Shown here one piece after another: positions 25,624-55,050 of a stretch of 64,000 nucleotides of DNA (the first letter of the stretch is position 1; each line of letters opens with the position of its first letter). Location of the stretch: NCBI GenBank assembly GCA_963806755.1, contig CAWDZR010000016.1, forward strand, positions 153,948 to 217,947, read 5' to 3'. Position numbers and translations under genes: made by a program. Source of the DNA: an uncultured Gemmatimonadales bacterium (GTDB lineage Bacteria; Gemmatimonadota; Gemmatimonadetes; Gemmatimonadales; JACORV01). Under the pieces are notes generated by a model. It saw only the letters and a list, made by a program, of their open reading frames with translations, had not been told where the DNA came from and made no database searches.

Positions 25624-25730
25624 GGAGTGCCCCAGGCACCCCGCCGCGACGTGGGACATCACTTAGCGCTGCTGCCTTCGGGGCTCTGACGCGGTTCGTG
25701 CGCCCTCGCCCGACGGACCTGGGGCACCTC
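25624..25730 (-). ncRNA. ffs: Signal recognition particle RNA (small, 4.5S-type)
   Basis: Minus-strand RNA: GGUGCCCCAGG...CGUCAGAGCCCCGAAGGCAGCAGCGCUAAGUGAUG...CCUGGGGCAC. The ends form a 10-bp closing helix. The apical GUCAG..GAAGG.AGCAGC..AAG.GA resembles the conserved domain IV of E. coli 4.5S RNA (GUCAGGUCCGGAAGGAAGCAGCCAAGGCAGA). It sits immediately upstream of dnaX, as in Bacillus subtilis scr-dnaX. Ends are approximate. Confidence 0.8.
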
Positions 25731-26648: not shown

Positions 26649-26673
26649 GGGGCCGCCCGCGAGGTGGCAGAAG

Positions 26674-29394: not shown

Positions 29395-29477
29395 GCGCCT
29401 AACCTAGCATCGGCGCGTGACGCCTGGTGAGGGCGGGGCTGCGGCCGGAGGCATCGCCCCCGGCCACGGGCGGCCGG

Positions 29478-30827: not shown

Positions 30828-30841
30828 CAGGCGTCCGATCA

Positions 30842-31420: not shown

Positions 31421-31422
31421 GG

Positions 31423-37556: not shown

Positions 37557-37575
37557 GGGCGCACCAACGCTGGAG

Positions 37576-37602
37576 GGCACGGGGGCACGGGAACGGCACG
37601 GC
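37576..37602. repeat. Intergenic GGCACGG(G) short tandem repeat
   Basis: ggcacggg ggcacggg aac ggcacggc, between the yihY-family stop codon and the ltaE start. Same unit as in cinA (19907..19978). Confidence 0.7.
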
Positions 37603-40983: not shown

Positions 40984-41406
40984 ATGCGCCCGCCGCGCTC
41001 GCCGCCGCGCGTCCTCGCGTACGATCTCGGCGAGGGCTGGACGGCGCTGGTCGGGCGCTCGGACGCCGACAACGACCGGCTGACGCTGCGCCTGGCGCGC
41101 CCGGACGACCGCTGGTTCCACGTGCGCGGCTGGCCCGGGAGCCACGTGCTGCTGCGCGGCCCGGAGGGCGAAGAGCCCGGCCGGGACCTGCTCGAGCGCG
41201 CGGCGGCCATCGCGGCGCATCACAGCAAGGCGCGCGACGCGGGCGTGGTGCCGGTCTCGTGCACGCTCGCGCGCCACGTCACCAAGCCCCGGGGCGCCAA
41301 GCCCGGGTCGGTGGAGATCCGCAAGGAAGTCGTGCTGAAGGTCCGCCCCGCTCTGCCGGGCGGCACGGGGCCGCCGCGCGGCACGGTGCCGCCGGGCGGC
41401 GCCTGA
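40984..41406 (+). CDS. NFACT-R/DUF814 domain protein
   Basis: Lies in the frame of track ORF 40318..41406, starting at ATG 40984. Sequence: ..GWTALVGRSDADNDRLTLRLARPDDRWFHVRGWPGSHVLLRG..AA.IAA.HSKAR.....V......V.KP.GAKPG.V. The tail LPGGTGPPRGTVPPGGA is encoded by the 18-nt repeat. Confidence 0.7.
   Translation: MRPPRSPPRVLAYDLGEGWTALVGRSDADNDRLTLRLARPDDRWFHVRGWPGSHVLLRGPEGEEPGRDLLERAAAIAAHHSKARDAGVVPVSCTLARHVTKPRGAKPGSVEIRKEVVLKVRPALPGGTGPPRGTVPPGGA
41356..41403. repeat. About 2.5 tandem 18-nt units of the same GGCACGG(T/G)GCC family, in frame at the 3' end of the DUF814 gene
   Basis: ccgggcggcacggggccg / ccgcgcggcacggtgccg / ccgggcggcgcc. Confidence 0.75.
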
Positions 41407-41412
41407 CCCGCG

Positions 41413-42186
41413 TCACACCTCGACGGCGAGCCCGTCGTAGGCCGGCTCGATGCCGGCCGGCAGCTCCGCGAGCAGGGCCGCGTGGCCCGTCTCGTGGGTG
41501 AGGTGGGTGAGGAAGGTGCGGCGCGCCCCGAGCGCCCGCGCCGTCTCCACCGCCTCCGGGATGGACAGGTGCGTGGGGTGCGGCCGGTGGAACAGCGCGT
41601 TCAGGACCAGCACCTCGAGCCCGCGGAGGCGCTCGCGCGCCGCCTCCGGCACGACCTGCACGTCGGTGAGGTAGGCCAGCGCCCCGATCCGGTAGCCGAA
41701 CACGTCGGACGGCCCGTGCGAGAAGCGCAGCGGGAGGACCGGGGTGCCGGCCACGACCGTCGCCACGCCCGCCTCGAGCGCGGTCGCGCTGACGTCGGGC
41801 CGCGACGAGCCCGGGATGGGGCGGGCCGCGGGATCGAAGATGTAGTCGAACTTCCGGCGCATCCGCTCCAGCGCGTCGGCCGGCCCGTAGATCGGCACGC
41901 GGCCGCGACCGTGGCCCGACAGCGCCCGCAGGTCGTCGATCCCGTGCGTGTGGTCGGCGTGATCGTGGGTGTAGAGCACCGCGTCCACCGCGCCGATGCC
42001 GGCCCTGAGCAGGCCGAGCCGCAGCTCCGTCGGGGTGTCGATCAGCAGCGTCGCCGTCGCCGTCTGCACCACGACCCCGGCGCGGTTGCGCTTGTCGCGC
42101 GGGTCGGTCGAGGTGCACACCGCGCACGTGCATCCCACCTGCGGGATCCCGAACGACGTGCCCGTCCCGAGGAAGGTGAGGCGCAC
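41413..42186 (-). CDS. MBL-fold metallo-hydrolase (PhnP/RNase Z-like)
   Basis: This is the C-terminal 257 aa of track ORF 41413..43101. GTG 42186 lies 2 nt after the pyk stop codon. Sequence: VRLTFLGTGTSFGIP...C.C..C......NR......LLIDT, and YTHDHADHTHGIDDLR. Confidence 0.8.
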   Translation of the reverse strand: MRLTFLGTGTSFGIPQVGCTCAVCTSTDPRDKRNRAGVVVQTATATLLIDTPTELRLGLLRAGIGAVDAVLYTHDHADHTHGIDDLRALSGHGRGRVPIYGPADALERMRRKFDYIFDPAARPIPGSSRPDVSATALEAGVATVVAGTPVLPLRFSHGPSDVFGYRIGALAYLTDVQVVPEAARERLRGLEVLVLNALFHRPHPTHLSIPEAVETARALGARRTFLTHLTHETGHAALLAELPAGIEPAYDGLAVEV

Positions 42187-42188
42187 CG

Positions 42189-43625
42189 CTAGACCTCTTC
42201 CACCTTGACCAGGTTCGTGGTGCCCGGGACGTCGAACGGGACGCCGGCGGTGACCACGACGCGGTCGCCGGGCCGGGCGAGGCCGGTGGCGAGGATCCGC
42301 TCGCGGGCCGCGTCGAGCATCGCGTCGTAGTGCGGCGCGCCCTCGCACCGCATCGGCACCACGCCCCACACCAGCGCCAGCTGCCGGCACGTCGCGGCGT
42401 TGTCGGTGACGCCCAGCACTGGCACCGCCGGGCGATTGGCCGCGACCATCCGCGCGCTGAAGCCGCTCTTGGTGAAGGTGACGATCAGCGGCGCGCCCAG
42501 CATCCGCGCCGCGGCCACCGCCGCCGCCGCGACGGCGTGCTCGCTGCGCGCCGGGGCCTCCGGCACGAGGTCGAGCCACTCGGGCGCCGGCCGCCAGCTC
42601 CGGTCCCCCTCCACGGCGCGGATGATCCGGTCCATCGCCTCGACCGCCTGGCGCGGATGGGCGCCGACGGCCGTCTCCTCCGACAGCATGACCGCGTCGG
42701 TGCCGTCCCAGATCGCGTTCGCCACGTCCGACGCTTCGGCCCGCGTGGGGCGCGGCGCGCGCACCATGGACTCGAGCATCTGCGTGGCGGTGATCACCGG
42801 TCGCCGGTGCGTCACGGCGGCGCGGATGACGCGCTTCTGCGCCAGGGGCACCTGTTCGAACGGCAGCTCCACGCCGAGATCGCCGCGCGCCACCATCACG
42901 CCGTCGCTCGCGTCGGCGATGCGGTCGAGATCGTCGAGCGCGGTGTCCTTCTCGATCTTGGCCACGATCCGGATACCGGCCGGCAGGAGGGAGCGCAGCG
43001 TCGTGACGTCCCCGGCCCGGCGCACGAACGAGAGCGCCACGTACTCGACGCCCTGCGCGACGGCGAAGCCCACGTCCGCGCGGTCCTTGTCGGTCAGGCA
43101 CGGGGCGGAGACTGCGACGCCCGGCAGGTTGATGCCCTTGTGGCTGGACAGCGGCCCGCCGCAGCGCACCCGCGCCTCGACCCGCGGCGGCCGCACGGCG
43201 ACCACGTCGAGCGCCAGGAGGCCGTCCGCCACCAGGATCCGCGTGCCGGCGGCCACGTCGGGCGCCAGGTCGTAGGTGACCGGCACCTCTCCGCGCTCCG
43301 CCACGCCCTCCGGCGCGAACACCACGGTCCCGCCTTCCTCCAGCACCAGGGGCGCCGCCAGCTCGCCGATCCGGATGCGCGGCCCCTGGAGATCGAGCAG
43401 GACGGCGACGGGCTTGCCCGCCGCGGCCGCCGCCTCGCGCGTGGCGGCGACGAGCGCCGCCCGCTGCTCGGGCGTGCCGTGGCTGGCGTTGATGCGCGCC
43501 ACGTCGAGCCCCGCGGCGATCAGGCCTCCGACCGAGGCGGCGGAGGCGGCGGCGGGACCGAGGGTGGCGACGATCTTGGTGCGGCGGACGACCAGGGGGC
43601 TACCTCGCGGCGGGACGAAGCTCAA
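42189..43625 (-). CDS. pyk: Pyruvate kinase
   Basis: ..RRTKIVATLGPA......L..AG.DVARIN.SHG.., ..IVAKIE......L..I....DG.MVARGDLGVE.., ..ATQMLESM...P.PTRAE.SDVANA. The proposed TTG start at 43625 (7 nt after GGTGGAG) overlaps the receptor stop codon as TTGA. The track's longer N-terminus looks spurious. Confidence 0.88.
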   Translation of the reverse strand: MSFVPPRGSPLVVRRTKIVATLGPAAASAASVGGLIAAGLDVARINASHGTPEQRAALVAATREAAAAAGKPVAVLLDLQGPRIRIGELAAPLVLEEGGTVVFAPEGVAERGEVPVTYDLAPDVAAGTRILVADGLLALDVVAVRPPRVEARVRCGGPLSSHKGINLPGVAVSAPCLTDKDRADVGFAVAQGVEYVALSFVRRAGDVTTLRSLLPAGIRIVAKIEKDTALDDLDRIADASDGVMVARGDLGVELPFEQVPLAQKRVIRAAVTHRRPVITATQMLESMVRAPRPTRAEASDVANAIWDGTDAVMLSEETAVGAHPRQAVEAMDRIIRAVEGDRSWRPAPEWLDLVPEAPARSEHAVAAAAVAAARMLGAPLIVTFTKSGFSARMVAANRPAVPVLGVTDNAATCRQLALVWGVVPMRCEGAPHYDAMLDAARERILATGLARPGDRVVVTAGVPFDVPGTTNLVKVEEV

Positions 43626-46405
43626 AAGATAAGCTCCACCCCCAGTCTCACCAGCCGCGGCGGCCCGTAGCAGAACAGCGGCTGGTAGAAGTCGCGCGCC
43701 GCCGCGACGTAGAGCGGCAGCAACTCGCTCTGGCCGGAGATGTAGCCGTCGTGGTTCTGGTCGGCCCACGCCCGGTAGTACGGCGACTCGTACGGGATCG
43801 GCTGTGGGTGCGCCTGGTAGGCGGCCATCCCCGCCGCCTGGATCCCCGCGTCCGAGAGTCCCGGTTCACCGGTGTCCCGCCGCACCGAGATCAGGTTGCG
43901 GGCGTTGAGGAGGTTGCGGACGTCGAGGTACAGGCTGCCGTGCACCCCCGCGACCGTGACCGGGCGCCGCAGCAGCATGTCCACCGTGGACGTGCTCGGC
44001 AGGCGCTCGCCGTTGATCGGCCCGAGCAGCGTGTCGCCGCTGGCGCTCGTCTTGGTGTACGGGAGCCCCGTCCCGTACCGGACGATCACCGCGCCCTGCC
44101 AGTTGGCCAGCGGCCGGATCCCCTGCACCACCGGCCCGAACTGCTCCGGCGCGCGCGCCTGGCCGATCACCGTCACGCCGAGCCGCTGGTCGTAGTCGAG
44201 CGGGAACTGGACCTGACCCGGATTCACCGTGTCCACGCCGACGACATAGGTGCCGCGGTACAGGTTGAAGGCGTTGCTGGCCGTGGCCGTGGCCGACTGC
44301 ACCGTGGCCGAGACCCGCACACCCCACCAGTCCTTCAGCTCCCGCTCGAACAGCACCTCCAGCCCCTTCACGGAGCCGTAGTCCACGTTGCCGAACACCG
44401 TCGAGTCGGGATTGAGCCCGAACGGCACGCTCGCCACCAGGCCCTCGAGCTGCTTCACGTACACGTTCACGTGCACCGAGGTCTCGGGCGTGGGCCGCGC
44501 CCGCACGCTGAACTCGTACTGCGTGGACTGCTCGAAGCCGAGATCCGGATTGCCGACGCGGAACCGGCCCGTGCGCAGCGTGTCGTCGAACGCCTGGTCC
44601 ACGAGGTACTGGTAGTCCGGCGACTGGCTGAAGCGACCCCAGCTGGCCACGACCGTGGCGCCGTGCAGCACCGTGGACAGCGCGAAGCGCGGGTTGAAGG
44701 TGGAGCGCCCCGGCATGCTGCGCGTCTGGCCCGCGAACGGAGGGGCGTGGGGATCGAACGCGTCGTAGCGTACGCCGAAGGTGAGCGCCAGGTCCTCGGT
44801 GCGCACCTGCGTCTCCGCGTACGCCGCCCCGCTGACGGGCGAGAAGTTGGATGCCGCGGGCGCGGGCACGCTGTCGCCCACCGGGAGATAGGCGAGCACT
44901 CGCTGGAACGTCTGCACCTTCTGGCGGACCACCTCGCCGCCGAAGTACAGGTCGGCGTCGTGCGACAGGCCGAGATCCGCATCGAGCTGGCCCCGGTACT
45001 CGCGGAACCGGTTCCAGGCGATCTCTCCGTCCGACCCCCCGCTCATGAAGAACGCCGGCACGCCCCACGGCGTATTGGTGGCGAACTGGGGCACCGCGAA
45101 GCCGGACACCGCGTTCCGCGCGCCGAGGGTGTCCTGGGCCTGCGCCAGCCCCTCGCCCAGGAAGTGGAAGGTCGTGCCGGTGAACGCCCCGAACCGGTAC
45201 GGGGCGGGCGAGCTCAGCATGCCGCGCTCGAAGTCGCGGGCGAAGTACCCGGCGCGCAGGTCCACGAGGAGCGTCGTGCCGGCGGAGGGCGGCGACACCA
45301 GCTGCAGGTGCCCGCTCAGCAGGTCGCCCGCCGTCCGCTGGGCGGGCGCGTCCGACTCGTCGTACTTGTACACCGGGTCGTACAGCAGCCGCTGGTCGAT
45401 GGAGTGCAGCGCGAACAGCCGCAGCGTCTGGCGGCCGAGGAACGGCACCGTCAGCTTGGCCGCGGCGTCGAGCTGCTCGGCGCTGTTGTGCGGCAGCATG
45501 TAGGGATTCGAGGAGCGCGGGTCCAGGCTCTGGCCGGGCCCCGGCGCGTTCACCGGGTCGCCGTCGAGGCGCCCGGTCGCGTCCAGGGCCGCCAGGAACT
45601 TGACGCCGCCCACCAGCGGCCCATCGGCCTCCAGCACGGCGCGGTCGAGCCCGTGGTCGAACGCCTGCCCCAGGCCCCGGTCGCTCTCGTAGGCGGCCCG
45701 GCCCTGCCAGCGATCACCGCCGTCCTTCGTCACGACGTTGATCATGCCGGAGATGGCCTGCCCGTACCGCGCCGAAAATCCATCGGTGACGAGCGCGGCC
45801 TCCGTCAGGATGTCGGGCGGCACCTGGACGCCGAGCGTGCCCGTGGAGGCGTCGAGCTGGTTCTTGAGGCCCAGGCCGTCGATGATGAACGTCTGCTCTC
45901 CGAGGCGGCCGCCGCGGTAGCTCTCGCCCACCGCCCCCGCGCTCAGGCTCACCGCCTCTTCGAGGGTGCTGACCGGCAGATGGCGCAGGTCGTCGGACGT
46001 GATGTGCTGGGTCGTGGCGGTCGCCAGGGGATTCAGCACCGCGTCGGGCTCGGCCTGCACGTTGACCGCGCCGAGCGGCACCGCCTGGGGCTGGAGCGCG
46101 AAGGACAGCATCGTCATCTCGCCCGCCCGGACCAGGACGCTGTCGCGCCGCGTCGGGGCGAAGCCGATCAGGCGCACCGTGACGGCGTGCCACCCGCTCG
46201 ACACCCCGCGGACCATGTAGTTGCCGCCGGTGTCGCTGAGCGTCGCGAGCCGGTGGTCGAGCAGCACCTGCGCGCTGCGCACCGCCGCGCCGGTGGTCGC
46301 GTCGCGCACGCGGCCCCCGATCGACCCCGAGGACTGGGCCGCGAGGGGCGACGCCGCCGCGACGAGAAGGGCCGCCGCGGCCACGAGCCGGCCGCGCGAC
46401 CTCAC
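43622..46405 (-). CDS. TonB-dependent receptor with N-terminal carboxypeptidase-regulatory-like domain
   Basis: This is the C-terminal 927 aa of track ORF 43622..47260. GTG 46405 overlaps the upstream stop codon (GTGA). Signal peptide: RLVAAAALLVAAASPLAAQ. Also SGSIGGRVRDATTGAAVRSAQV..GNYMV..SGWHAVTVRLIGF (CarboxypepD_reg), a plug domain (..FSARYGQAISGMINVVTKDG), a long beta-barrel and a terminal ..RLGVELIF. Confidence 0.85.
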   Translation of the reverse strand: MRSRGRLVAAAALLVAAASPLAAQSSGSIGGRVRDATTGAAVRSAQVLLDHRLATLSDTGGNYMVRGVSSGWHAVTVRLIGFAPTRRDSVLVRAGEMTMLSFALQPQAVPLGAVNVQAEPDAVLNPLATATTQHITSDDLRHLPVSTLEEAVSLSAGAVGESYRGGRLGEQTFIIDGLGLKNQLDASTGTLGVQVPPDILTEAALVTDGFSARYGQAISGMINVVTKDGGDRWQGRAAYESDRGLGQAFDHGLDRAVLEADGPLVGGVKFLAALDATGRLDGDPVNAPGPGQSLDPRSSNPYMLPHNSAEQLDAAAKLTVPFLGRQTLRLFALHSIDQRLLYDPVYKYDESDAPAQRTAGDLLSGHLQLVSPPSAGTTLLVDLRAGYFARDFERGMLSSPAPYRFGAFTGTTFHFLGEGLAQAQDTLGARNAVSGFAVPQFATNTPWGVPAFFMSGGSDGEIAWNRFREYRGQLDADLGLSHDADLYFGGEVVRQKVQTFQRVLAYLPVGDSVPAPAASNFSPVSGAAYAETQVRTEDLALTFGVRYDAFDPHAPPFAGQTRSMPGRSTFNPRFALSTVLHGATVVASWGRFSQSPDYQYLVDQAFDDTLRTGRFRVGNPDLGFEQSTQYEFSVRARPTPETSVHVNVYVKQLEGLVASVPFGLNPDSTVFGNVDYGSVKGLEVLFERELKDWWGVRVSATVQSATATASNAFNLYRGTYVVGVDTVNPGQVQFPLDYDQRLGVTVIGQARAPEQFGPVVQGIRPLANWQGAVIVRYGTGLPYTKTSASGDTLLGPINGERLPSTSTVDMLLRRPVTVAGVHGSLYLDVRNLLNARNLISVRRDTGEPGLSDAGIQAAGMAAYQAHPQPIPYESPYYRAWADQNHDGYISGQSELLPLYVAAARDFYQPLFCYGPPRLVRLGVELIF

Positions 46406-47490
46406 GGCACCTCCAGCAGCCACAGGTCGGACGCTGCGTTCACGACGGTATCCACGGGGCCGCCCTCCACCTGTAGGTACGTCACGGCATGGCCCTCGGC
46501 CACCACTTGCGTGCCCGACGGCGACAGGGCCGGCCGCATGTAGAATACGTACGGACCCGACGTGAGATGGGACGGCCCGCCGGCGGGCAACCTGGCGGTG
46601 AAGACGTGACCCGCACGCTGGGACTCGGTCGCGGCCCCCAGGATCGCCACCAGCCGTCCCGACGCCACCTGCGCATCCACGCAGGTGCCCAGGCTGTCGA
46701 ACGCGTACACGGGCGTCCGCGCGCCGCTGACCGCGTTCACGGCGTACACCACGGAGTCGCGGGTCATCGTCACGTACACGGACTCCGAATCGCCGGGGGT
46801 CGTGCTCACCGAGGTCGCACCCGCCGTCCCGGGAACGACCCGAACCACGGCCGTCGCGCCGCTGACGTCGGCCACGGCGACTTCGAGCGGCACGACGATC
46901 GTGTCCACGAGCGTTCCTCGCGTCTGGTAGGTGACCAGCTCGGCGAGGTAGACCAGCGTGGTGCTGCTGAGCCAATGGAGGTTCGACAGGCTGGTGTGCA
47001 GCACGCCATCGGGCGCCAGGTAGGGGAACGAGAGGACCACGCGGCCCGATTCCGGCTGCGCCATCGCCCCCACCACCAGGTCGCGGGTGTGCGGGCTCTC
47101 CGCGCCGATCGCCGAGCTCTCCCTCAAATAGGCGATATCCGCCCTGAACCCCAGCGCGGGATTCGAGAGCACGTTGGTCGAATCCGCGTCGAGCACGGGC
47201 GGCACGTGGCAGACGATCTCCTCCAGATGTCCGCCCTGTGACGGCAGCACGCCGAGGCACTGGTCGTGGTCCGCCTGCGGGAGCTGGAAAGCGTACGCGA
47301 TGAGGGCGCCGTCGGGCGACCAGGACGGATCCACGTTCGCGCCGGCCCTGAACGTGAGTCGGCGCGGAAACGCGCCGTCGAACGGCCCGCCGGGCTCACC
47401 CGGGCCCAGCGGGAACGGCTGCGCGTGATCGCAGGCCGCGAGGGAGGCCAGCCCCATCATCACCGCGGTCACGACCGTGCCGACCTTCAT
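46402..47490 (-). CDS. Lipoprotein, beta-propeller-like, paralog B
   Basis: This is the C-terminal 362 aa of track ORF 46402..48108, starting at ATG 47490. Lipobox: GLASLAAC. PD40-like WSPDGALIAY. Shares CxHAQPF, FPRxLTF, QCLGVxPxxGGHL, LDADSTN, VPGTAGATSV and DLWLLxVP with the gene at 47610..48617. Confidence 0.65.
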   Translation of the reverse strand: MKVGTVVTAVMMGLASLAACDHAQPFPLGPGEPGGPFDGAFPRRLTFRAGANVDPSWSPDGALIAYAFQLPQADHDQCLGVLPSQGGHLEEIVCHVPPVLDADSTNVLSNPALGFRADIAYLRESSAIGAESPHTRDLVVGAMAQPESGRVVLSFPYLAPDGVLHTSLSNLHWLSSTTLVYLAELVTYQTRGTLVDTIVVPLEVAVADVSGATAVVRVVPGTAGATSVSTTPGDSESVYVTMTRDSVVYAVNAVSGARTPVYAFDSLGTCVDAQVASGRLVAILGAATESQRAGHVFTARLPAGGPSHLTSGPYVFYMRPALSPSGTQVVAEGHAVTYLQVEGGPVDTVVNAASDLWLLEVP

Positions 47491-47609
47491 CGCTCGCCCT
47501 GCGGTTGGCACATCCAGCTCTCCCCGCCGTGCCCGAACGCCGGGATCTCCGAAAGCACGATCCCGGCCAGGACCGCCGTCCGTCGCACGCGCGAGGCGGG
47601 CGCCTAGGC

Positions 47610-48617
47610 TCACGGCACCACCAGCAGCCACAGGTCCGGGGGAGCCCCGGACGCGCTCGCCGCGGCGACCAGCCGGTCGCCGGCGTGGCTCAGTGCGATG
47701 TCCACCACCTGCAATGAATCGGGGAGGCCGAGCACGGTCGGCGTCCCGGAGCCGACGTGGACGTCGTAGATCGAATCCCCCACGAGCGCGGCCAGGACCT
47801 GCCCCGCCACCCGGATGCGCGTCGGCGCGCCGGCCGCGCCGAAGTCGTACCACGCCGTGGGGGTGGGAGCGTTCTCCAGGAGCCGGTACACGCGGCTGTC
47901 TCCGGGCAGCGTGTAGTACAGCGCGAGCGAGTCGGTGGCGACCGACGTCGCCCCGGCGGTGCCGGGGACCGAAGTCTCCTGCACCGAGTCCCCGACCAGG
48001 TCGAGGCGGACGATCTCGATCGGAGCGAACAGTGTGTCCACCGGCAGCGGCGGCGTGGTGAACGTCAGCACGCCCGAGCGGAAGACGAGCGTGCCGGCGT
48101 GCCACCACTGGAGGTCGCGGACGCCCGTGACGAGCGAGCCGCCGCTGTCAGTGTAGGGGAGCCGCAGCAGCACCCGGCCGGGGTCCGGCGCGCTCCAGGG
48201 GGCCAGCACCAGCTCGCTGCTGCCGGGGTCGGTCGCGCCGATCGCCGAGCCGTCGCGCAGGTACGCCAGCAGGCCCGCCGGCCCCGGCGCCGGCATCCAG
48301 AGCGCATTGGTGGAGTCGGCGTCGAGCGGAGCGGTATGGCAGATCGTCGTGGTCAGGTGCCCGCCGGCGGGCGGCATGACGCCGAGGCAATGGTCCCCGT
48401 CGGGCCGGTCGAGCGACAGCGAGTAGATGATGCCGGAGTCGGCCGGCAGGAATGCGGGCTGCACGTCGCCGAGCCGGCTGAACGTCAGCTGGCGGGGAAA
48501 GGCGAAGCCGAACGGCTCGTTCGGCCCGAGATCGGCCCGGCCGAAAGGCTGCGCGTGCTCGCAGGCGGCCACGGTGGCGAGGCCGGCCAGGGCGACCGCT
48601 GCGGCGGCGCGCGACAT
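47610..48617 (-). CDS. Lipoprotein, beta-propeller-like, paralog A
   Basis: This is the C-terminal 335 aa of track ORF 47610..49718, starting at ATG 48617. Lipobox: LATVAAC. See the shared motifs listed for paralog B. Confidence 0.65.
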   Translation of the reverse strand: MSRAAAAVALAGLATVAACEHAQPFGRADLGPNEPFGFAFPRQLTFSRLGDVQPAFLPADSGIIYSLSLDRPDGDHCLGVMPPAGGHLTTTICHTAPLDADSTNALWMPAPGPAGLLAYLRDGSAIGATDPGSSELVLAPWSAPDPGRVLLRLPYTDSGGSLVTGVRDLQWWHAGTLVFRSGVLTFTTPPLPVDTLFAPIEIVRLDLVGDSVQETSVPGTAGATSVATDSLALYYTLPGDSRVYRLLENAPTPTAWYDFGAAGAPTRIRVAGQVLAALVGDSIYDVHVGSGTPTVLGLPDSLQVVDIALSHAGDRLVAAASASGAPPDLWLLVVP

Positions 48618-49546
48618 CACGGCGCGATCCCGGGCAATGGCACCCACCCCTCCCCGCGGTGACCGAAGGTGAACACGTCCGGATGCAGCACTTCGGCGAG
48701 GATCTCCAGCGATTCCACCAGCCGCGGGCCAGGCCGGTGGAAGTACGCGTTCCCGTCGGCGAGATATACACGTTGCGACGAGACGGCGCGAAGTCCCGGC
48801 CACCCGGCGCGCCCCGCCAGCGCCGGCATTTCGGCCCGCGTGCGTTCCAGGTCGAAGCCGCACGGCGAAACCAGGATGAGGTCGGGGTCCGCCGCGGCGA
48901 GCGATTCCCACGTCATCCACGGCGAGTGCTTGCCGGCCGTTCCGAAGAGGTTGACGCCGCCCGCCGCGGCCACCAGCTCGGGCATCCAGTTGCCGGCGGC
49001 CATGAGGGGCTCGATCCATTCTACCACGGCGACCCGGGGGCGTTCCGGGACGGAGGCGGCCCGCCGTTCGATCGCCTCGACGCGGGCCCGGAGCCGAGCC
49101 ACCAGCGCCGCGCCGCGCGCCGCGACCCCCAGCGCCGCCGCCACGCGCGCGATGTCCGCCCAGACGTCGCCCAGCCCATTGGGCTCCAGCGCCACGATGC
49201 GCGCCGGGTGCTCGGCCAGCTCGCACGCGGCCCGCTCCACGTCGGCGGGGCTCACGGCGCACACCTCGCACTGCGTCTGGGTGAGAATGACGTCCGGTCG
49301 GAGCGCCTTCAACAGCCCCGCGTCCACCTCGTAGATCGACAGCGCGCGGCGCAGCCGCTCCTTCAGCGCGGCGTCCACCGCGCGGCTGCTCCCGCCGGTC
49401 GCAAAGGCCGGGCGGCTCACCGCCGGGAGGTGTCGCACCGACGGCGGCCAGTCGCACTCGTGCGAGCGGCCGACGAGCGACGCCTCCGCTCCCAGGGCGC
49501 ACACGATCTCGGTGGCCGAGGCGATCAGCGACACGACCCGCGGCAT
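48617..49546 (-). CDS. BtuF/TroA-like periplasmic-binding-protein fold (cobalamin/iron-siderophore binding family) without a signal peptide
   Basis: This is the C-terminal 309 aa of track ORF 48617..50824, starting at ATG 49546. MPRVVSLIASATEIVCALGA...LVG.SHECDWP...., ..LRPDVILTQ..C.VC.., ..PDLILVSPCGF... The protein begins directly with the first beta-strand motif, and no hydrophobic leader is present. Confidence 0.7.
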   Translation of the reverse strand: MPRVVSLIASATEIVCALGAEASLVGRSHECDWPPSVRHLPAVSRPAFATGGSSRAVDAALKERLRRALSIYEVDAGLLKALRPDVILTQTQCEVCAVSPADVERAACELAEHPARIVALEPNGLGDVWADIARVAAALGVAARGAALVARLRARVEAIERRAASVPERPRVAVVEWIEPLMAAGNWMPELVAAAGGVNLFGTAGKHSPWMTWESLAAADPDLILVSPCGFDLERTRAEMPALAGRAGWPGLRAVSSQRVYLADGNAYFHRPGPRLVESLEILAEVLHPDVFTFGHRGEGWVPLPGIAP

Positions 49547-51090
49547 CAGGTGCCGCGGGTCGGGAAGGTGTCGAGCAACCAGCTCCGCCACCGCGCCTGC
49601 CGCTGCATGGCCAGCACGAAGGGCCGCTCGCGCGGCGCCTCCTTGGCGCGGAGGACGGCGAGCAGGGCGCGGCGCTGGGACGGCTCCCAGCGCCCCAGAT
49701 CGGGCACCAGGGCCGCAACCGGAGCCAGGCGGGGCGGGACGGTGTCGGCGCCGAGGGCGCGGGCGACCTGGCGCACGGACTCCCGGACGGCCCGGGCCCG
49801 GTCGCCGCCGTGGCGGAGCCGGATGGCGCGCGTGACCGCGAGCCCCGCGGCGCGCACGTCCACGTCCCGGAACGCCTCGGGCGGCGCGCCGTCGGTGGAC
49901 AGCACGAGGTCGCTGCGCGCCAGGCGTCGCAGGGTCGCGGGCGAGCTGCGCGCTCCCGGCCGCGCCGCGAGGCGAGCCGCCTCCGCCTCCGCCTCGAGCC
50001 GCACCACCCGCGCCAGAGGCCGGAAGCCCAGCTTGTGGTAGAACCAGAACGAGCCGGCCTCGATCCCCTCGGGGTTGTGGTGGCCCACCTGGTAGCGGCG
50101 CATCACGAAGGTCCGGGCCCCGAAGTTGTGATGGAACGTGGCGCAGAAGCGGTCGAAGACGAAGGCCGACTCCCCGCCCCGGTACGTCGGGAAGATGTTG
50201 ATCCCGATGTCGGCGCGGCCGAAGAGCAGGACGGCGTACCCGTACCCGATCGGCACCCCGTTCTTCACCAGCAACGCACCGTAGTCGCTCTCCAGGGTCA
50301 GGCGGAGCGGCGCGACGAGGCCGATCACGTAGATCTCGAGCCCGCGGCCGGCCGCGACGCGGTACACCTCCCGCGGGTTGCCGTGGACGATGACGTGAAA
50401 CTCCCGCTCGCGCTGGGACAGCGCGGCGCGGGCCGCGTCCACGATCCGGCGGCCGCGCTCGGGGGCGAGCAGCCGCAGCGCCCCCGGCGCGCGCCGCACG
50501 CCGGCGGCGAAGTCCGGCGGCCGCTCCACCAGGAGCCGGCGGTGGAAGAACGGCGCGGCCGGCAGCTTCGCGTGGGTGATCGCGTCGCGGCACCCGCTCA
50601 GGTCCCAGCGGATCGGCAGGTTGAGGGATTCGAAGAGGTGCGCCTCGAGCTGCGGATCGAGGCCCCGGGCCGCCAGCGCGTCGAGCAGCCACGCCAGGTC
50701 GGTGCGCCGGTCGGCGCCTTTCGCCGCGCGGATCCACGCCCACGAGGGCACGTCGTCGTCGTCCAGCCCCTCGTTCTCCGCCCAGGCCACCACCAGCGAC
50801 AGCAGGGCCGCGACGTCGTCCCACGGCCGGCGCCGGTAGGCCGCCCAGTCCACCTCGACCGCGGAGCCGTAGCGGCCCCGCAGCCAGCGGGTCATCGCGT
50901 AGTTGAAGGGATAGTGATAGGTGGTCCCGGCGATCCCGGTGTTGCGCAGCTCCTCGCGCCGCGGCCCGACCAGGCGCTCGAACACCGCCAGCGCGCGCTC
51001 GGCGCGCCGCAGCTCGCGGGCGCTGCGGGGAAAGGCCCGCTGAAAGCAGAGGCGCTCGTGTCGCGCCGCGAGCGCCTCCGCCGTCACCAT
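49546..51090 (-). CDS. Conserved-looking hypothetical protein (514 aa) with a possible GNAT-like C-terminal half
   Basis: Full-length track ORF with a coding-like composition (Trp/Tyr/Phe/His-containing, not Arg/Gly junk). The segment ..NGVPIGYGYAVLLFGRADIGINIFPTYRGGESAFVFDRFCATF...GIEAGSFWFYHKLGFRP resembles an acetyltransferase fold by eye only. Confidence 0.6.
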   Translation of the reverse strand: MVTAEALAARHERLCFQRAFPRSARELRRAERALAVFERLVGPRREELRNTGIAGTTYHYPFNYAMTRWLRGRYGSAVEVDWAAYRRRPWDDVAALLSLVVAWAENEGLDDDDVPSWAWIRAAKGADRRTDLAWLLDALAARGLDPQLEAHLFESLNLPIRWDLSGCRDAITHAKLPAAPFFHRRLLVERPPDFAAGVRRAPGALRLLAPERGRRIVDAARAALSQREREFHVIVHGNPREVYRVAAGRGLEIYVIGLVAPLRLTLESDYGALLVKNGVPIGYGYAVLLFGRADIGINIFPTYRGGESAFVFDRFCATFHHNFGARTFVMRRYQVGHHNPEGIEAGSFWFYHKLGFRPLARVVRLEAEAEAARLAARPGARSSPATLRRLARSDLVLSTDGAPPEAFRDVDVRAAGLAVTRAIRLRHGGDRARAVRESVRQVARALGADTVPPRLAPVAALVPDLGRWEPSQRRALLAVLRAKEAPRERPFVLAMQRQARWRSWLLDTFPTRGT

Positions 51091-51108
51091 GCCCGCCCCG
51101 CCGTCACC

Positions 51109-51948
51109 CTAGGCGCACTCCCGCTCCACGATCTCGCGATAGAGCTGCGCCAGCCGGCGGGTGACGGGGCGGTCCGCCGGGAGCTTCCGCCCGTCGAGGC
51201 AGTCCACGCTCACCACTTCATACGGCGTGCTCGTCAGGAACAGCTCGTCCACGTCGCCGAGCTCGGTGGCGAACACCGGCGTCTCGCGGCAGGGGATCCC
51301 GTGCTCGCGGCACAGGTCCAGCACCACCGCGCGCGTGATCCCCGGCAGGATGTAGTTCGACAGCGGCGCCGTGCGCACCTCCCCGTCGCACACCGCGAAC
51401 ACGTTGCTGAGCGACCCCTCCTGCACCACGCCGTCGCGCACGAACAGCCCCTCGTGCGCCCCCAGCTCCCTGGCCCGCTGGGCCGAGAAGGAGTTGGGAA
51501 TCAGCGACGTGACCTTGATGTCGCAGCGGGACCAGCGCACGTCGGGCTCGAGGATCGCGATCGCGCCGGGATCGGCGAAGGCCGGATTGGGCTTGAACGC
51601 CCAGGCCATCCCGAACACCGTCGGCTTCGTGTCGGCCGGCGGGAAGACGTGCGAGCGCGGCGCCGTGCCGCGGGTCACCTGGAGGTAGATCGCCGCGTCG
51701 CCGGTCAGGCCGTTCTCGCGCAGCAGCCGGCCCGCCACCTCCTCGAGCGGGGTGAGGTGCACCCCGATGCGCATCTTCGCGCAGCTGGAGGCCAGGCGCT
51801 GGAAATGCTCCCCGAGGAGAAACGGCTTGCCGTGGTAGGCGCGGATCCACTCGTACACGCCGTCGCCGTAGGTGAACCCGCGGTCGAGGGGGGAGATGCG
51901 CGCCTGGTCGTCGGGCAGGTACTGCCCGTTGAGATAGACAGTGCTCAT
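51109..51948 (-). CDS. Class IV aminotransferase (D-amino-acid / branched-chain aminotransferase family)
   Basis: ..DRGFTYGDGVYE..R.Y.GK.F....H..RL..S......., ..RCDIKVTSLIPN.. (the PLP Lys), ..EGS.SNVF.V.DG...T.P.....LPGITR. 279 aa. Confidence 0.85.
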   Translation of the reverse strand: MSTVYLNGQYLPDDQARISPLDRGFTYGDGVYEWIRAYHGKPFLLGEHFQRLASSCAKMRIGVHLTPLEEVAGRLLRENGLTGDAAIYLQVTRGTAPRSHVFPPADTKPTVFGMAWAFKPNPAFADPGAIAILEPDVRWSRCDIKVTSLIPNSFSAQRARELGAHEGLFVRDGVVQEGSLSNVFAVCDGEVRTAPLSNYILPGITRAVVLDLCREHGIPCRETPVFATELGDVDELFLTSTPYEVVSVDCLDGRKLPADRPVTRRLAQLYREIVERECA

Positions 51949-51969
51949 GACTTCAACCTAGCCCCGCGG

Positions 51970-53112
51970 CTAGCGACGCCGCCAGATCGTCCAGCGGTCC
52001 ACGACCTCCTCGCCGCGGACCACGTCGTAGTGATCGAACATCGCCGCGGTGAGGCAGGAGTGGTTGGGCAGGATGCGGACCTTGTCCCCCACGGCCAGCC
52101 GCCCCTCGACGTCGGCGATGTCCGGCCCTCCCACCAGGCCGTGCTCCTGCGAGACGCCCCGGACCTCGAGCCGCGGCTCGAGCTCGGCCCCCGCCAGGCC
52201 GGCGAGCAGGGGACCGAGGCCCCGGGCCCGCGCCGGGTCGTGCGGCCCGGCGTCCTTGGACAGCGCGAGCGCGCCGGCGTCCACCACGGCGTGGCCGGCG
52301 CCGGGCTGGTGCGAGACCACGCTCGCCAGCACGCTCACCGCGCAGTCGGCCGGCGCGCACACCCCGACCGCCGCCTGCATGTAGTCGTAGAAGGCGTAGT
52401 TGCCCGGCCGGATCTCGCTCACCCCGTCCAGCCGCTCGACGGCGGACATCCCGGGCGTCGAGCCCACGCTCACGCCGGACACGGTGATTCCCTCCCCCGC
52501 CAGCCGCGCCGCGAGGCCGGCCATCGTCGCGCGCTCGGCCTCCGCCACGGCCGCGCGCGCCGCGCGGCCGCCGGCCTGGTAGCTCTGCCCCGCGTGGGTG
52601 AGCAGACCGTCGAAGGCCACGCCCCGCTCCCCGGCCATGCGCCGCGCCAGCTCCACGGTGGCCGCCGCGGCGGGGTCCACGCCCGAGCGGTGGTGGCCGG
52701 CGTCCACCTCGAGCCACGCGTGCACCACGACGCCGGCCGCGCGCGCCGCCGCGCCGAGGGCCTCGAGCGCGCGCGGCGAATCGAGCGTCACCCGGAACGC
52801 GAGCCGGCGGGCCAGCGCGACCACCTCGTCGAGCCGCCCCACCACCAGCGGAAAGGCCCAGGTGACGTCCTTGAAGCCGCCGTCGGCGAACGCCTGCGCC
52901 TCGGGCAGCGTGGCGACCGTGATCCCCACCGCGCCGCGCGCCAGCTGGCGGCGCCCGACCTCGAGGCACTTGTGGGTCTTGGCGTGGGGCCGCAGCGCGA
53001 CGCCGAGCGCCGAGGCGCGTGCGGCCATGCGGTCGAGGTTGCGCTCGAGGACGTCGAGCTCGAGCAGCAGGGCGGGCGTGGGCAGGTCGCCCACCAACGA
53101 ACGGCGCGGCAT
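51970..53112 (-). CDS. D-threonine aldolase / D-serine dehydratase-like PLP enzyme (alanine-racemase-N fold, DSD1 family)
   Basis: LPTPALLLELDVLERNLDRMA......GVALRPHAKTHKC.EV...QL..GA.GITVATL.EA. C-terminal ..RILPNHSC.TAAMFD.Y.V. Confidence 0.8.
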   Translation of the reverse strand: MPRRSLVGDLPTPALLLELDVLERNLDRMAARASALGVALRPHAKTHKCLEVGRRQLARGAVGITVATLPEAQAFADGGFKDVTWAFPLVVGRLDEVVALARRLAFRVTLDSPRALEALGAAARAAGVVVHAWLEVDAGHHRSGVDPAAAATVELARRMAGERGVAFDGLLTHAGQSYQAGGRAARAAVAEAERATMAGLAARLAGEGITVSGVSVGSTPGMSAVERLDGVSEIRPGNYAFYDYMQAAVGVCAPADCAVSVLASVVSHQPGAGHAVVDAGALALSKDAGPHDPARARGLGPLLAGLAGAELEPRLEVRGVSQEHGLVGGPDIADVEGRLAVGDKVRILPNHSCLTAAMFDHYDVVRGEEVVDRWTIWRRR

Positions 53113-53185
53113 CAGTCGAAACTGACGCCGCGCCGTGGAGACTTCAATGCCTCCCTGGTTCCCGACCCCTGGCCCCTAGCCCGTC

Positions 53186-53569
53186 TTACTTGGCAAACCC
53201 GCCCGGCATCTGCAGCAGGAAGAACTTGTTGCCGTCGAGGTCCTTGAAGTTCGCCAGAATGCCGCCCCAGCGTTCCTTGCGCGGCTTCAGCGTGAACTTG
53301 ACCTTCTTCTGCTTCAAAGTCCGGTAGGTCTTCTCGATGTCGTCCACCTGGAAGCTCACGCCGGTCTTGATCCCCACCAGTTTCTTCGCGGCCTTGTTCC
53401 ACGGCGTGGTGAGCGACAGGGTGGTGCGCCCGGCCCCGCAGTCGAAGCACACCCAGGCGTGCTTCCGGTCGAAGAAGCACAGCCTGAGCCCCAGCTTGTC
53501 GCGATAGAACTTGAGCGACTTGCCCAGGTCCTTGACGACGACCGTCACGTTCCCGATCTGCGTGATCAT
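53186..53569 (-). CDS. VOC (glyoxalase/bleomycin-resistance) family protein
   Basis: 127 aa. MITQIGNVTVVVKDLGKSLKFYRDKLGL.. FQVDDIEKTY..LK.KKV.F......RWGG..A.F.D.DGN.F.L. The protein is Lys-rich, ends in a TAA stop and has visibly lower G+C than its neighbours. Confidence 0.8.
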   Translation of the reverse strand: MITQIGNVTVVVKDLGKSLKFYRDKLGLRLCFFDRKHAWVCFDCGAGRTTLSLTTPWNKAAKKLVGIKTGVSFQVDDIEKTYRTLKQKKVKFTLKPRKERWGGILANFKDLDGNKFFLLQMPGGFAK

Positions 53570-53584
53570 AACCCGCCCCGGCCT

Positions 53585-54922: not shown

Positions 54923-54926
54923 GTTG

Positions 54927-55010
54927 CCTCTCCCCTGGCGGCGATGATGCGAGCTCACGCCACCCGTAACCGCAATTTCTGTGCTCGCCTTGGCCGCCAG
55001 GGGAGAGAGG
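54927..55010. terminator. Inverted repeat directly downstream of the BNR-protein gene
   Basis: cctctcccctggcggc (54927-54942) and gccgccaggggagagagg (54993-55010), with an inner gcgagc/gctcgc pair around a lower-G+C loop. It lies between the stop codon at 55051 and the next start. Confidence 0.4.
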
Positions 55011-55050
55011 AGAGCGGCGCCCTCGAACGGGCGTTCGAAGGTCTACGCCG

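What the first reader, a model, noticed from the sequence alone, without database searches (positions are those of the whole stretch)
43622..51090. Translationally coupled operon: unknown 514-aa protein, signal-less BtuF-like protein, two paralogous lipoproteins, and a CarboxypepD_reg TonB-dependent receptor (then pyk and an MBL hydrolase)
Five genes follow each other with overlapping stop and start codons (49544-49548 TGATG, 48615-48619 TGATG, 46402-46405 GTGA), with one 119-nt gap at 47491-47609. The receptor's stop codon in turn overlaps a TTG start for pyruvate kinase (TTGA, 43622-43625). The set has an outer-membrane importer and surface/periplasmic lipoproteins but no ABC permease/ATPase, no TonB-ExbBD, and no recognisable catabolic enzyme. 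It resembles a SusC/D-like or haemophore-like capture system built from unfamiliar parts. The substrate is unknown; the BtuF/TroA fold hints at a corrinoid, haem or metallophore.
Basis: partly seen in the sequence, partly recalled or inferred. Interest (0 to 1): 0.58.

Follow-up and report, generated by a model that had tools for sequence, protein, structure and literature searches.

The report
Outer-membrane uptake cassette, probably for vitamin B12
An uncultured soil bacterium (order Gemmatimonadales) carries a conserved gene cassette: an outer-membrane importer, two propeller-shaped lipoproteins and an unusual cytoplasmic relative of the vitamin B12-binding protein BtuF. It most likely scavenges B12-type cofactors, and it resembles known capture systems of gut Bacteroides but is built from different parts.

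Summary

The "five-gene operon", however, is a composite inside a 12-gene co-directional string (58149-41413).
- **The 514-aa protein.** It has a high-confidence model with a central GNAT (acyltransferase) fold. It occurs in many phyla without any of these neighbours.
- **The real module.** It is BtuF-like + one or two lipoproteins + TonB-dependent receptor. It is conserved across Gemmatimonadales, was lost secondarily in some, and has BtuF-like as an optional part.
- **The lipoproteins.** They are a lineage-restricted family of 6-bladed beta-propellers. This parallels BtuG and XusB of Bacteroides in fold class only.
- **The BtuF-like protein.** It is truly signal-less. It belongs to a large subfamily with four conserved Cys and one His. 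In other phyla, members 55-63% identical to it sit in operons headed by cobalamin riboswitches, with a receptor, a cobalamin adenosyltransferase and a DUF6580 membrane protein.

This favours a corrinoid substrate. Against it, the window's receptor is not orthologous to those receptors, and no riboswitch is present here.

Verdict: a new variant of a known kind, of moderate interest.

The parts
48617..49546 (-). Signal-less (cytoplasmic) BtuF-like protein, 309 aa. Conserved His29, Cys31, Asp32, Cys93-x-x-Cys96 and Cys229.
   Evidence: Peripla_BP_2 8e-21. The profile's best PDB matches are an 'iron-binding protein' (4m7o), V. cholerae BtuF and the haem binder ShuT. No N-terminal extension in 23 close homologues or in most of 121 distant representatives. 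Stop codons lie 7-18 codons upstream of the start in several relatives. 55-63% identical to members of cobalamin-riboswitch operons.
47610..48617 (-). Lipoprotein Lip1, 335 aa: 6-bladed beta-propeller with a conserved C-[ED]-H-A-Q-P-F motif right after the lipid-anchor Cys.
   Evidence: Lipobox VAAC. AF2 pLDDT 89.1, six blades. Foldseek returns only generic propellers. The profile matches NHL-type 'Pizza'/PknD propellers and, weakly, TolB. The family has only 47 homologues; all those placed lie in this locus. Conserved motif and Cys77/Cys93 pair.
46402..47490 (-). Lipoprotein Lip2, 362 aa: paralogue of Lip1 (39% identity).
   Evidence: Lipobox LAAC. One PD40 repeat, 5.8e-5. Aligned with Lip1. 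Two-lipoprotein versions also occur in L014, L017, L018, L025 and L027.
43622..46405 (-). TonB-dependent receptor, 927 aa: signal peptide, CarboxypepD_reg N-terminal domain, divergent plug, barrel ending in Phe.
   Evidence: CarboxypepD_reg 4.8e-12, OMP_b-brl_3 2e-7, Plug only E 0.034. TIGR01783 and the colicin I receptor match the plug region at 129-289. Syntenic in at least 14 Gemmatimonadales loci. Not orthologous to the riboswitch-linked receptors.
47491..47609 (-). 119-nt gap between Lip1 and Lip2; no recognisable element.
   Evidence: Fold z-score 0.25 against shuffles. No promoter or terminator match. The gap is about 15-63 nt in two-lipoprotein relatives.
49546..51090 (-). 514-aa cytoplasmic protein (U514) with a central GNAT-like fold: a conserved neighbour, not part of the uptake module.
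   Evidence: No Pfam, NCBIfam or PDB sequence match. AF2 pLDDT 89.5. Foldseek hits are almost all GNAT acetyltransferases, probability up to 1.0 but E >= 0.05. 61 genome loci in more than 10 phyla; outside Gemmatimonadota none has the window's neighbours.
51109..53112 (-). Upstream genes of the same string: D-Ser-dehydratase/D-Thr-aldolase-like (51970-53112) and D-amino-acid transaminase (51109-51948).
   Evidence: Ala_racemase_N + D-ser_dehydrat; Aminotran_4; TIGR01121 at 231.7 bits, below its cutoff of 277. Gaps of 21 and 18 nt. Conserved upstream of U514 in Gemmatimonadales, including loci without the cassette.
41413..43625 (-). Downstream genes of the same string: pyruvate kinase (42189-43625, TTG start overlapping the receptor stop) and a metallo-beta-lactamase-fold hydrolase (41413-42186).
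   Evidence: PK 1.3e-102 and PK_C. Lactamase_B_2 5.5e-36. In L007, L009, L010 and L012, pyk-MBL follows U514 directly with no cassette.

Best explanation
The region holds a three-part uptake module (BtuF-like, Lip1/Lip2, TonB-dependent receptor) inserted in a long co-directional string of otherwise unrelated metabolic genes.

**Proposed mechanism**
1. The receptor imports a scarce cofactor across the outer membrane, using TonB encoded elsewhere.
2. The two paralogous 6-bladed beta-propeller lipoproteins are its dedicated accessory binders. They either capture the ligand at the cell surface, as BtuG and XusB do, or receive it in the periplasm.
3. An inner-membrane transporter encoded elsewhere carries the ligand inward.
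4. The signal-less BtuF-like protein accepts or processes it in the cytoplasm through its Cys/His-lined cleft.

The most likely ligand is a corrinoid (the vitamin B12 family). The 514-aa GNAT-fold protein, the D-amino-acid enzymes, pyruvate kinase and the MBL hydrolase are co-transcribed neighbours, not parts of the module.

**Shown:** gene anatomy, folds, absence of a signal peptide, synteny and its variants, and the riboswitch link of the BtuF-like subfamily in other phyla.
**Inferred:** the ligand, the location and role of the lipoproteins, and the cytoplasmic acceptor role.
For: **Modularity.** Among the Gemmatimonadales loci with enough flank, most read Dser-DAAT-U514-[BtuF]-[Lip x1-2]-receptor-Pyk-MBL. 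Four (L007, L009, L010, L012) have U514-Pyk-MBL with none of the three parts. L007, L009 and L010 form a nested subclade, so their state is a secondary loss. BtuF-like is never present without the lipoprotein and receptor.

**Lipoproteins.** The family has only 47 homologues. Those on long contigs share contig lengths with U514 homologues, and all found in fetched loci sit in this locus.

**BtuF-like is cytoplasmic.** It has no N-terminal extension, and stop codons lie just upstream of the start in relatives. L078 also encodes a signal-bearing BtuF-type binding protein, and L081 a signal-bearing protein in the binding-protein position.

**B12 link.** The subfamily (C31 100%, H29 96%, C93 93%, C96 91%, C229 96%) recurs in the operon receptor - cobalamin adenosyltransferase (PF01923) - DUF6580 - [PP-loop ATPase] - BtuF-like, or next to FecCD + ABC_tran. 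Cobalamin riboswitches (RF00174, 37-116 bits) head these operons in 7 loci. Every evaluable locus with a receptor upstream of BtuF-like has one (5 of 5). The window protein is 55-63% identical over its full length to those members.

**Design precedent.** BtuB-BtuG and XusA-XusB pair a receptor with a beta-propeller surface lipoprotein (PMC10404256, PMC13142918).
Against: - The window's receptor is not orthologous to the riboswitch-linked receptors. Similarity is confined to the N-terminal and plug region (E 6e-5 at best), whereas most of those receptors align with each other over their full length. TIGR01779 (BtuB) scores 14.7 bits against a cutoff of 599.7.
- No cobalamin riboswitch occurs in the window or in 9 related loci.
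- Only 7 of 63 scanned loci of the BtuF-like subfamily carry the riboswitch, and most contexts are uninformative.
- BtuF-like is missing from at least 5 cassettes (the contig of L003/L005, L006, L016, L019, L022), and L022 has the receptor without a lipoprotein.
- The lipoproteins show no sequence similarity to BtuG or XusB, and they have six blades rather than seven.
- No inner-membrane transporter, TonB or B12-dependent enzyme is in the window.
- The Cys cluster could equally bind a metal ion or an Fe-S cluster.
Confidence: 0.45

Rival explanations
1. Same architecture, different ligand: haem, a siderophore or another metal chelate is imported, and the Cys/His-rich BtuF-like protein handles the metal or an Fe-S cluster in the cytoplasm.
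For: By single-sequence search the closest solved relatives are haem binders (ShuT 1e-9, RhuT 6e-9). By profile the best hit is an 'iron-binding protein', 6e-26. Four Cys plus one His is a typical metal or Fe-S ligand set. XusB shows that propeller lipoproteins can serve siderophore uptake (PMC13142918). No cobalamin riboswitch is present here.
Against: In other phyla the subfamily sits next to cobalamin adenosyltransferase and cobalamin riboswitches, not haem or siderophore genes. No iron-regulated features or siderophore genes were seen in the window.
Confidence: 0.2
2. The genes are not one functional unit. The receptor and lipoproteins import an unrelated substrate, and BtuF-like is a separate cytoplasmic cofactor protein that merely sits in the same compact co-directional string.
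For: The string holds 12 co-directional genes of mixed function, including pyruvate kinase overlapping the receptor's stop codon. BtuF-like is absent from at least 5 cassettes. The receptor belongs to a different clade from the riboswitch-linked ones.
Against: BtuF-like never occurs here without the lipoprotein and receptor, and it is lost together with them. Every close BtuF-like homologue placed on a fetched locus lies in this locus. In other phyla the same subfamily is again encoded with a receptor.
Confidence: 0.15
3. The whole string is a pathway for peptides that contain D-amino acids (for example cell-wall fragments). The receptor and the PD40/NHL propeller lipoproteins import peptides, and the D-amino-acid transaminase, the D-Ser-dehydratase-like enzyme and the GNAT protein process them.
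For: D-amino-acid enzymes lie 18-21 nt upstream in the same string. A Peptidase_S15 (X-Pro dipeptidyl-peptidase-type) gene, whose L004 product begins with a hydrophobic, signal-like N-terminus, is inserted between U514 and the cassette in L004, L006, L019 and L145. PD40 propellers are common in peptidases.
Against: The two blocks vary independently. Dser-DAAT-U514 persists without the cassette (L007, L009, L010), and DAAT is missing from loci that keep the cassette (L018, L020, L025, L027). This reading does not explain the BtuF-like protein or its B12 links.
Confidence: 0.12
4. The receptor works outward, like Myxococcus Oar (also CarboxypepD_reg + TonB-dependent transporter), which is needed to secrete a protein.
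For: The N-terminal domain type is shared with Oar (PMC6434023).
Against: No candidate secreted cargo is conserved in the locus. The only precedent is a single system.
Confidence: 0.03

Closest known systems
BtuB-BtuG vitamin B12 capture complexes of Bacteroides (with BtuFCD and a cobalamin riboswitch)
   Same: A TonB-dependent transporter is encoded beside a beta-propeller lipoprotein and a BtuF-type protein. The BtuF-like subfamily here is riboswitch-linked to B12 uptake genes in other phyla.
   Different: - The lipoproteins have six blades, not seven, and show no detectable sequence relation to BtuG.
- They are encoded upstream of the receptor, in one or two copies.
- The receptor is not BtuB-like.
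- There is no riboswitch.
- The BtuF-like protein lacks a signal peptide and carries a Cys/His cluster.
- There is no BtuCD.
XusA-XusB xenosiderophore system of Bacteroides
   Same: Receptor plus beta-propeller surface lipoprotein that binds the ligand (PMC13142918).
   Different: XusB is a seven-bladed DUF4374 protein; no such domain is found here. No adjacent PepSY membrane partner. The phylum is different.
E. coli-type BtuF and haem-binding proteins (ShuT, HmuT), class III periplasmic binding proteins
   Same: Same Pfam family (Peripla_BP_2) and significant sequence similarity.
   Different: No signal peptide. Subfamily-specific H-E-C-D and C-x-x-C motifs and Cys229 sit at loops that face the ligand cleft. 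There is no partner ABC transporter in the locus. Some relatives' operons also encode a separate signal-bearing binding protein.
SusC/SusD pairs of polysaccharide utilisation loci
   Same: The receptor has an N-terminal CarboxypepD_reg domain and an adjacent lipoprotein.
   Different: There is no SusD-type helical lipoprotein, no SusC/RagA signature and no glycoside hydrolases; gene order is reversed.
BtuM-BtuR loci (small membrane B12 transporter with adenosyltransferase)
   Same: In other phyla the BtuF-like subfamily lies with a receptor, a cobalamin adenosyltransferase and a small membrane protein (DUF6580). This mirrors the reported btuB/btuM/btuR co-localisation (PMC6072759).
   Different: None of these partners is in the window. 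Equivalence of DUF6580 and BtuM was not tested.

Membership tests
SusC/SusD-like pair | SusD/RagB-type helical lipoprotein encoded next to the transporter | tested here: not met
   No SusD Pfam hit even at E <= 10. The Lip1 model is an all-beta six-bladed propeller.
SusC/SusD-like pair | SusC/RagA-type transporter signature | tested here: not met
   The NCBIfam scan lists no SusC/RagA model. Only CarboxypepD_reg and weak generic TonB-receptor matches appear.
BtuB-BtuG B12 capture system | BtuB-type receptor | tested here: not met
   TIGR01779 scores 14.7 bits against a cutoff of 599.7. Only N-terminal similarity to riboswitch-linked receptors.
BtuB-BtuG B12 capture system | Beta-propeller lipoprotein partner homologous to BtuG | tested here: inconclusive
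   Fold class is met (propeller lipoprotein). There are six blades, not seven, and no BtuG appears among the profile's PDB sequence hits at E <= 10 or the top 50 Foldseek hits.
BtuB-BtuG B12 capture system | Cobalamin riboswitch control | tested here: not met
   None in the window at the gathering threshold or at E <= 1 in 41000-56000, and none in 9 related loci.
BtuB-BtuG B12 capture system | Lipoprotein binds corrinoid and is surface-exposed | not testable with these tools
   Needs binding assays and surface-exposure experiments.
BtuF / class III periplasmic binding protein of an ABC importer | Peripla_BP_2 fold | tested here: met
   PF01497, 8.2e-21, above cutoff. PDB profile hits include BtuF at 5e-24.
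BtuF / class III periplasmic binding protein of an ABC importer | Export signal (periplasmic location) | tested here: not met
   The protein starts at the first strand of the fold. The same holds in 23 close and most of 121 distant homologues. Upstream stop codons leave no room for a signal peptide in relatives.
BtuF / class III periplasmic binding protein of an ABC importer | Adjacent FecCD-type permease and ATPase | tested here: not met
   None in the window. Present beside subfamily members only in L078 and L081.
Signal-less four-Cys BtuF-like subfamily (defined here) | No signal peptide; His29, Cys31, Asp32, Cys93-x-x-Cys96, Cys229, Trp177, Trp187 | tested here: met
   All are present in the window protein and 91-100% conserved in 121 representatives. 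It is 55-63% identical to riboswitch-operon members.
GNAT acyltransferase superfamily (514-aa protein) | GNAT fold with an acyl-CoA-binding loop | tested here: inconclusive
   Foldseek hits are almost all GNATs (probability up to 1.0), but E >= 0.05 and TM relative to target is 0.35-0.52. No Pfam or PDB sequence hit. Invariant R304, G306, E307, S308 lie at the expected loop. That placement is my inference.
TolB (lipoproteins) | TolB N-terminal domain plus PD40 propeller reaching the family cutoff | tested here: not met
   TIGR02800 scores 18 bits against a cutoff of 343. Only one PD40 repeat is detected. These are lipoproteins with no TolB N-domain.
XusAB | DUF4374 lipoprotein | tested here: not met
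   No such Pfam hit at E <= 10.

The most novel reading that the evidence does not exclude
Two unrecognised components of bacterial B12 scavenging may be present here.

1. The signal-less, four-Cys BtuF-like proteins form a large family with more than 1,300 clusters at E <= 1e-30. They would be cytoplasmic corrinoid acceptors or processors: for example Cys-ligated decyanation, or Fe-S-dependent reduction ahead of adenosylation. They would act after membrane transport. This would explain their place in riboswitch-controlled operons of the form receptor - adenosyltransferase - DUF6580.

2. The Gemmatimonadales lipoproteins would be an independently evolved, six-bladed counterpart of BtuG. That would extend lipoprotein-assisted vitamin capture beyond Bacteroidota.
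Probability: 0.3. Interest if true: 0.75.

Novelty: new variant of a known kind. Interest (0 to 1): 0.5.

Why it matters
- **Reach of the design.** Receptor-plus-surface-lipoprotein capture of vitamins and siderophores has been shown structurally only in gut Bacteroides. A differently built version in abundant, uncultured soil Gemmatimonadales would suggest the design is widespread and arose more than once.
- **A gap in B12 salvage.** The cytoplasmic BtuF-like subfamily is currently annotated as a periplasmic 'iron complex' or 'cobalamin' binding protein. It is large, uncharacterised and tied to B12 riboswitches in several lineages. Defining its ligand would address how imported corrinoids are received and handed to adenosyltransferase.
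- **Annotation.** It would also correct a common mis-annotation.

Tried and rejected
- **Riboswitch or leader.** The Rfam gathering scan of the whole window found only SRP RNA. The permissive scan of 41000-56000 found only chance-level microRNA/sRNA hits. Nine related loci had none.
- **Promoters and terminators.** No promoter-like site. One weak terminator-like site lies inside the U514 gene, fewer than in shuffles.
- **The 119-nt gap.** Its fold is no better than shuffles, z = 0.25.
- **Own contig.** The window's own U514 protein is not on record for contig look-up.
- **Neighbours of U514 outside Gemmatimonadota.** The only hint was PLP enzymes of the PALP type in 4 loci, too sparse to use.
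- **Over-diverse alignment.** A4 was too diverse for a collection scan; the narrower A5 worked.
- **Literature.** Searches for DUF6580, BtuF-like proteins and cytoplasmic BtuF found nothing relevant.
- **Metal site in the lipoproteins.** Rejected: the 'GGH...CH' histidines are not conserved, and only the Cys77/Cys93 pair is, probably a disulfide.
- **Universal B12 regulation of the subfamily.** Rejected: only 7 of 63 scanned loci carry the riboswitch.


Full report
**Observation**

The window is about 72% G+C and resembles Gemmatimonadales: the closest relatives of its proteins come from metagenome-assembled genomes (MAGs) of that order. On the minus strand the genes are:
- a 514-aa ORF, here called U514 (49546-51090);
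- a 309-aa BtuF-like protein (48617-49546);
- two lipoproteins, Lip1 (47610-48617) and Lip2 (46402-47490);
- a 927-aa TonB-dependent receptor (43622-46405);
- pyruvate kinase (42189-43625);
- a metallo-beta-lactamase (MBL) fold hydrolase (41413-42186).

GC3 of 0.90-0.97 supports every gene. The same tight junctions occur in relatives, so they are not chance.

A D-amino-acid transaminase gene ends 18 nt upstream of U514. A D-Ser-dehydratase/D-Thr-aldolase-like gene ends 21 nt upstream of that. Twelve genes from 58149 to 41413 run in one direction with no gap above 119 nt. No promoter, terminator, riboswitch or unusually stable structure marks internal boundaries.

**The 514-aa protein (U514)**

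It matches nothing in Pfam, NCBIfam or PDB by sequence. It is nevertheless strongly conserved: 280 homologues were found, and identity stays at 60-90% among the 120 best.

An AlphaFold model built on 24 homologues is confident (pLDDT 89.5, pTM 0.89). Its central sheet region (about residues 237-357) draws almost only GNAT acetyltransferases in Foldseek. Probabilities reach 1.0, but E-values are weak, 0.05 or worse. Invariant residues R304, G306, E307 and S308, and the 'FWFY.KLGF' segment, sit where GNATs bind acyl-CoA. That placement is my inference.

A genome scan found 61 loci. They come from Gemmatimonadota, Acidobacteriota, Zixibacteria, Ignavibacteriales, Eisenbacteria, Krumholzibacteriota, betaproteobacteria, Planctomycetota, Nitrospinae, Elusimicrobia and Flavobacteriales, and all are MAGs. 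Outside Gemmatimonadota none carries any of the window's other genes. U514 is therefore a neighbour, not a component of the capture system.

**Synteny and modularity**

In Gemmatimonadales the order is Dser-DAAT-U514-[BtuF-like]-[Lip x1-2]-receptor-Pyk-MBL. Dser is the D-Ser-dehydratase-like gene and DAAT the D-amino-acid transaminase. The variants are:
- Four loci (L007, L009, L010, L012) go straight from U514 to Pyk-MBL.
- BtuF-like is missing from the contig of L003/L005 and from L006, L016, L019 and L022.
- L022 has the receptor without a lipoprotein.
- Five loci have two lipoproteins, like the window.
- Four loci carry an extra S15 peptidase gene.

On a U514 tree, L007, L009 and L010 form a nested subclade. 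The cassette is therefore ancestral and was lost secondarily in that group. BtuF-like is never present without the lipoprotein and receptor. The functional unit is thus BtuF-like + Lip + receptor. The flanking genes vary independently of it: DAAT, for example, is absent from L018, L020, L025 and L027, which keep the cassette.

**The lipoproteins**

Both have lipoboxes and are 39% identical. The family is small, only 47 homologues. Members on long contigs share contig lengths with U514 homologues, and all found in fetched loci sit in this locus.

The Lip1 model (pLDDT 89.1) is a six-bladed beta-propeller behind a flexible linker. Foldseek returns only generic propellers. A profile search of PDB sequences returns NHL-type 'Pizza' and PknD propellers (1.5e-15) and weak TolB matches, with no BtuG or XusB.

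A C-[ED]-H-A-Q-P-F motif directly after the lipidated Cys is nearly invariant, although it lies in the low-confidence linker. That suggests a sorting signal or a contact with the receptor; in BtuG the linker runs along a BtuB loop (PMC10404256). An invariant Cys77/Cys93 pair fits an exported, disulfide-bonded protein.

**The receptor**

It has a signal peptide, a CarboxypepD_reg domain, a divergent plug (Pfam Plug E 0.034; TIGR01783 and the colicin I receptor match residues 129-289) and a barrel ending in Phe. A TonB-box-like strand (AVNVQAE) lies between the N-terminal domain and the plug; this is my reading of the sequence. No subfamily model comes near its cutoff, so sequence gives no specificity.

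**The BtuF-like protein: the key evidence**

It begins at the first strand of the fold, as do 23 close homologues. An exhaustive search found 13,494 representative proteins at E <= 1e-3 and 1,325 at E <= 1e-30. The best 150 are mostly about 300 aa, and most align from their first residues.

Among 121 full-length representatives, conservation is: Cys31 100%, His29 96%, Asp32 95%, Cys93 93%, Cys96 91%, Cys229 96%. These residues are absent from solved BtuF and haem binders. 'SHECD' aligns with 'SEYSD' of V. cholerae BtuF, and the C-x-x-C loop aligns with a gap in the top solved hit, 4m7o. From my recollection of the E. coli BtuF sequence, they fall at the loops that carry the B12-contacting Tyr50 and Trp85.

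A metagenome scan with this subfamily returned 80 loci. Clustering their neighbours and scanning them against Pfam gave:
- a recurrent operon, receptor - cobalamin adenosyltransferase (PF01923) - DUF6580 membrane protein - [PP-loop ATPase PF01902] - BtuF-like, complete or in part, in L082, L086, L105, L119, L120, L139, L140 and L141;
- FecCD + ABC ATPase neighbours in L078 and L081.

Rfam found cobalamin riboswitches at the head of these operons in L141 (116 bits), L134, L119, L087, L078 (two copies), L081 and L086. Every evaluable locus with a receptor upstream of BtuF-like has one (5 of 5).

The window protein is 55-63% identical over its full length to these members. In several of them a stop codon 7-18 codons upstream of the start excludes a signal peptide. 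L078 also encodes a separate signal-bearing BtuF-type binding protein, and L081 a signal-bearing protein in the binding-protein position. The signal-less protein therefore has its own, cytoplasmic role.

Caveat: only 7 of 63 scanned loci have the riboswitch. By my rough estimate that is about ten times what chance would give, but it is not universal.

**What argues against a simple B12 reading here**

- The window's receptor shares only N-terminal similarity with the riboswitch-linked receptors. Most of those align with each other over their full length.
- No riboswitch is present in the window or in 9 related loci.
- BtuF-like is dispensable in some cassettes.
- The window holds no inner-membrane importer, no TonB/ExbBD and no B12-dependent enzyme.

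**Most likely mechanism (confidence 0.45)**

1. The receptor, helped by its dedicated propeller lipoproteins, imports a corrinoid.
2. A transporter encoded elsewhere moves it across the inner membrane.
3. The cytoplasmic BtuF-like protein receives or processes it.

Rivals:
- a haem, siderophore or metal ligand with the same architecture (0.2);
- no functional link between BtuF-like and the receptor (0.15);
- a pathway for D-amino-acid peptides that uses the whole string (0.12);
- Oar-like secretion (0.03).

**Comparison with known systems**

- It works like BtuB-BtuG and XusA-XusB of Bacteroides: a receptor plus a propeller lipoprotein.
- It fails membership of BtuBG. The receptor is not BtuB, the lipoproteins have six blades with no detectable homology to BtuG, and there is no riboswitch.
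- It is not a SusC/D pair. There is no SusD-type protein.
- Its BtuF-like protein is not a periplasmic BtuF. It has no signal peptide and no BtuCD partner.

**Verdict**

This is a new variant of a known kind, with one component that is poorly understood: the cytoplasmic four-Cys BtuF-like subfamily. Interest 0.5.

Noticed in passing
window 49546-51090 (-); L001-L064: The 514-aa protein defines a widespread family with no Pfam, NCBIfam or PDB sequence match and a confident GNAT-like central fold. It occurs in more than 10 phyla, and every genome hit is a MAG. Copies labelled Acidobacteria (62-66% identity) nest inside the Gemmatimonadales clade and stand alone, which suggests horizontal transfer or mis-binning.
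   Followed up: partly
L078, L081, L082, L086, L087, L119, L134, L139-L141: In other phyla a signal-less four-Cys BtuF-like protein closes cobalamin-riboswitch operons of the form receptor - PduO-type adenosyltransferase - DUF6580 membrane protein - PP-loop ATPase (Diphthami_syn_2). L078 also encodes a normal signal-bearing BtuF-type protein, and L081 a signal-bearing protein in that position. No paper on this was found.
   Followed up: partly
L079, L086, L094, L113, L114, L117, L119, L144: A PP-loop ATPase of the Diphthami_syn_2 family lies directly beside the BtuF-like gene in 8 loci, often without other B12 genes. Its role is unknown.
   Followed up: no
L004 5120-7207; L006; L019; L145 6920-8959: Some relatives carry a Peptidase_S15/PepX_C gene (X-Pro dipeptidyl-peptidase type) between the 514-aa gene and the cassette; the L004 product begins with a signal-like N-terminus.
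   Followed up: no
window 58956-61556 (-): An 866-aa protein combines a BTAD transcriptional-activator domain, TPR repeats and a PD40 beta-propeller (PD40 2e-41). A small lipoprotein with no Pfam hit is encoded next to it at 61657-62382.
   Followed up: no
window 36534-37580, 51109-53112, 62599-63987 (-): PLP-dependent amino-acid enzymes are unusually frequent in the window: beta-eliminating lyase/threonine-aldolase type, D-amino-acid transaminase, D-Ser-dehydratase-like and a pyridoxal decarboxylase.
   Followed up: no
window 25626-25725 (-): Bacterial small SRP RNA (41.8 bits), the only Rfam match in the window at the gathering threshold.
   Followed up: no
window 26674-35184 (-): By their N-terminal sequences the genes at 33469-35184 and 31423-33468 look like KdpA and KdpB, and 26674-29394 like KdpD. 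A response regulator (25956-26714) and an OmpL-like porin (29478-30881) were confirmed by Pfam. The Kdp calls rest on my reading of N-termini only.
   Followed up: no
L134 13357-13547; L125 2717-2916; L094 1861-1905: Acido-Lenti-1 sRNA matches occur near some BtuF-like loci, in two loci as inverted pairs. They are probably unrelated.
   Followed up: no
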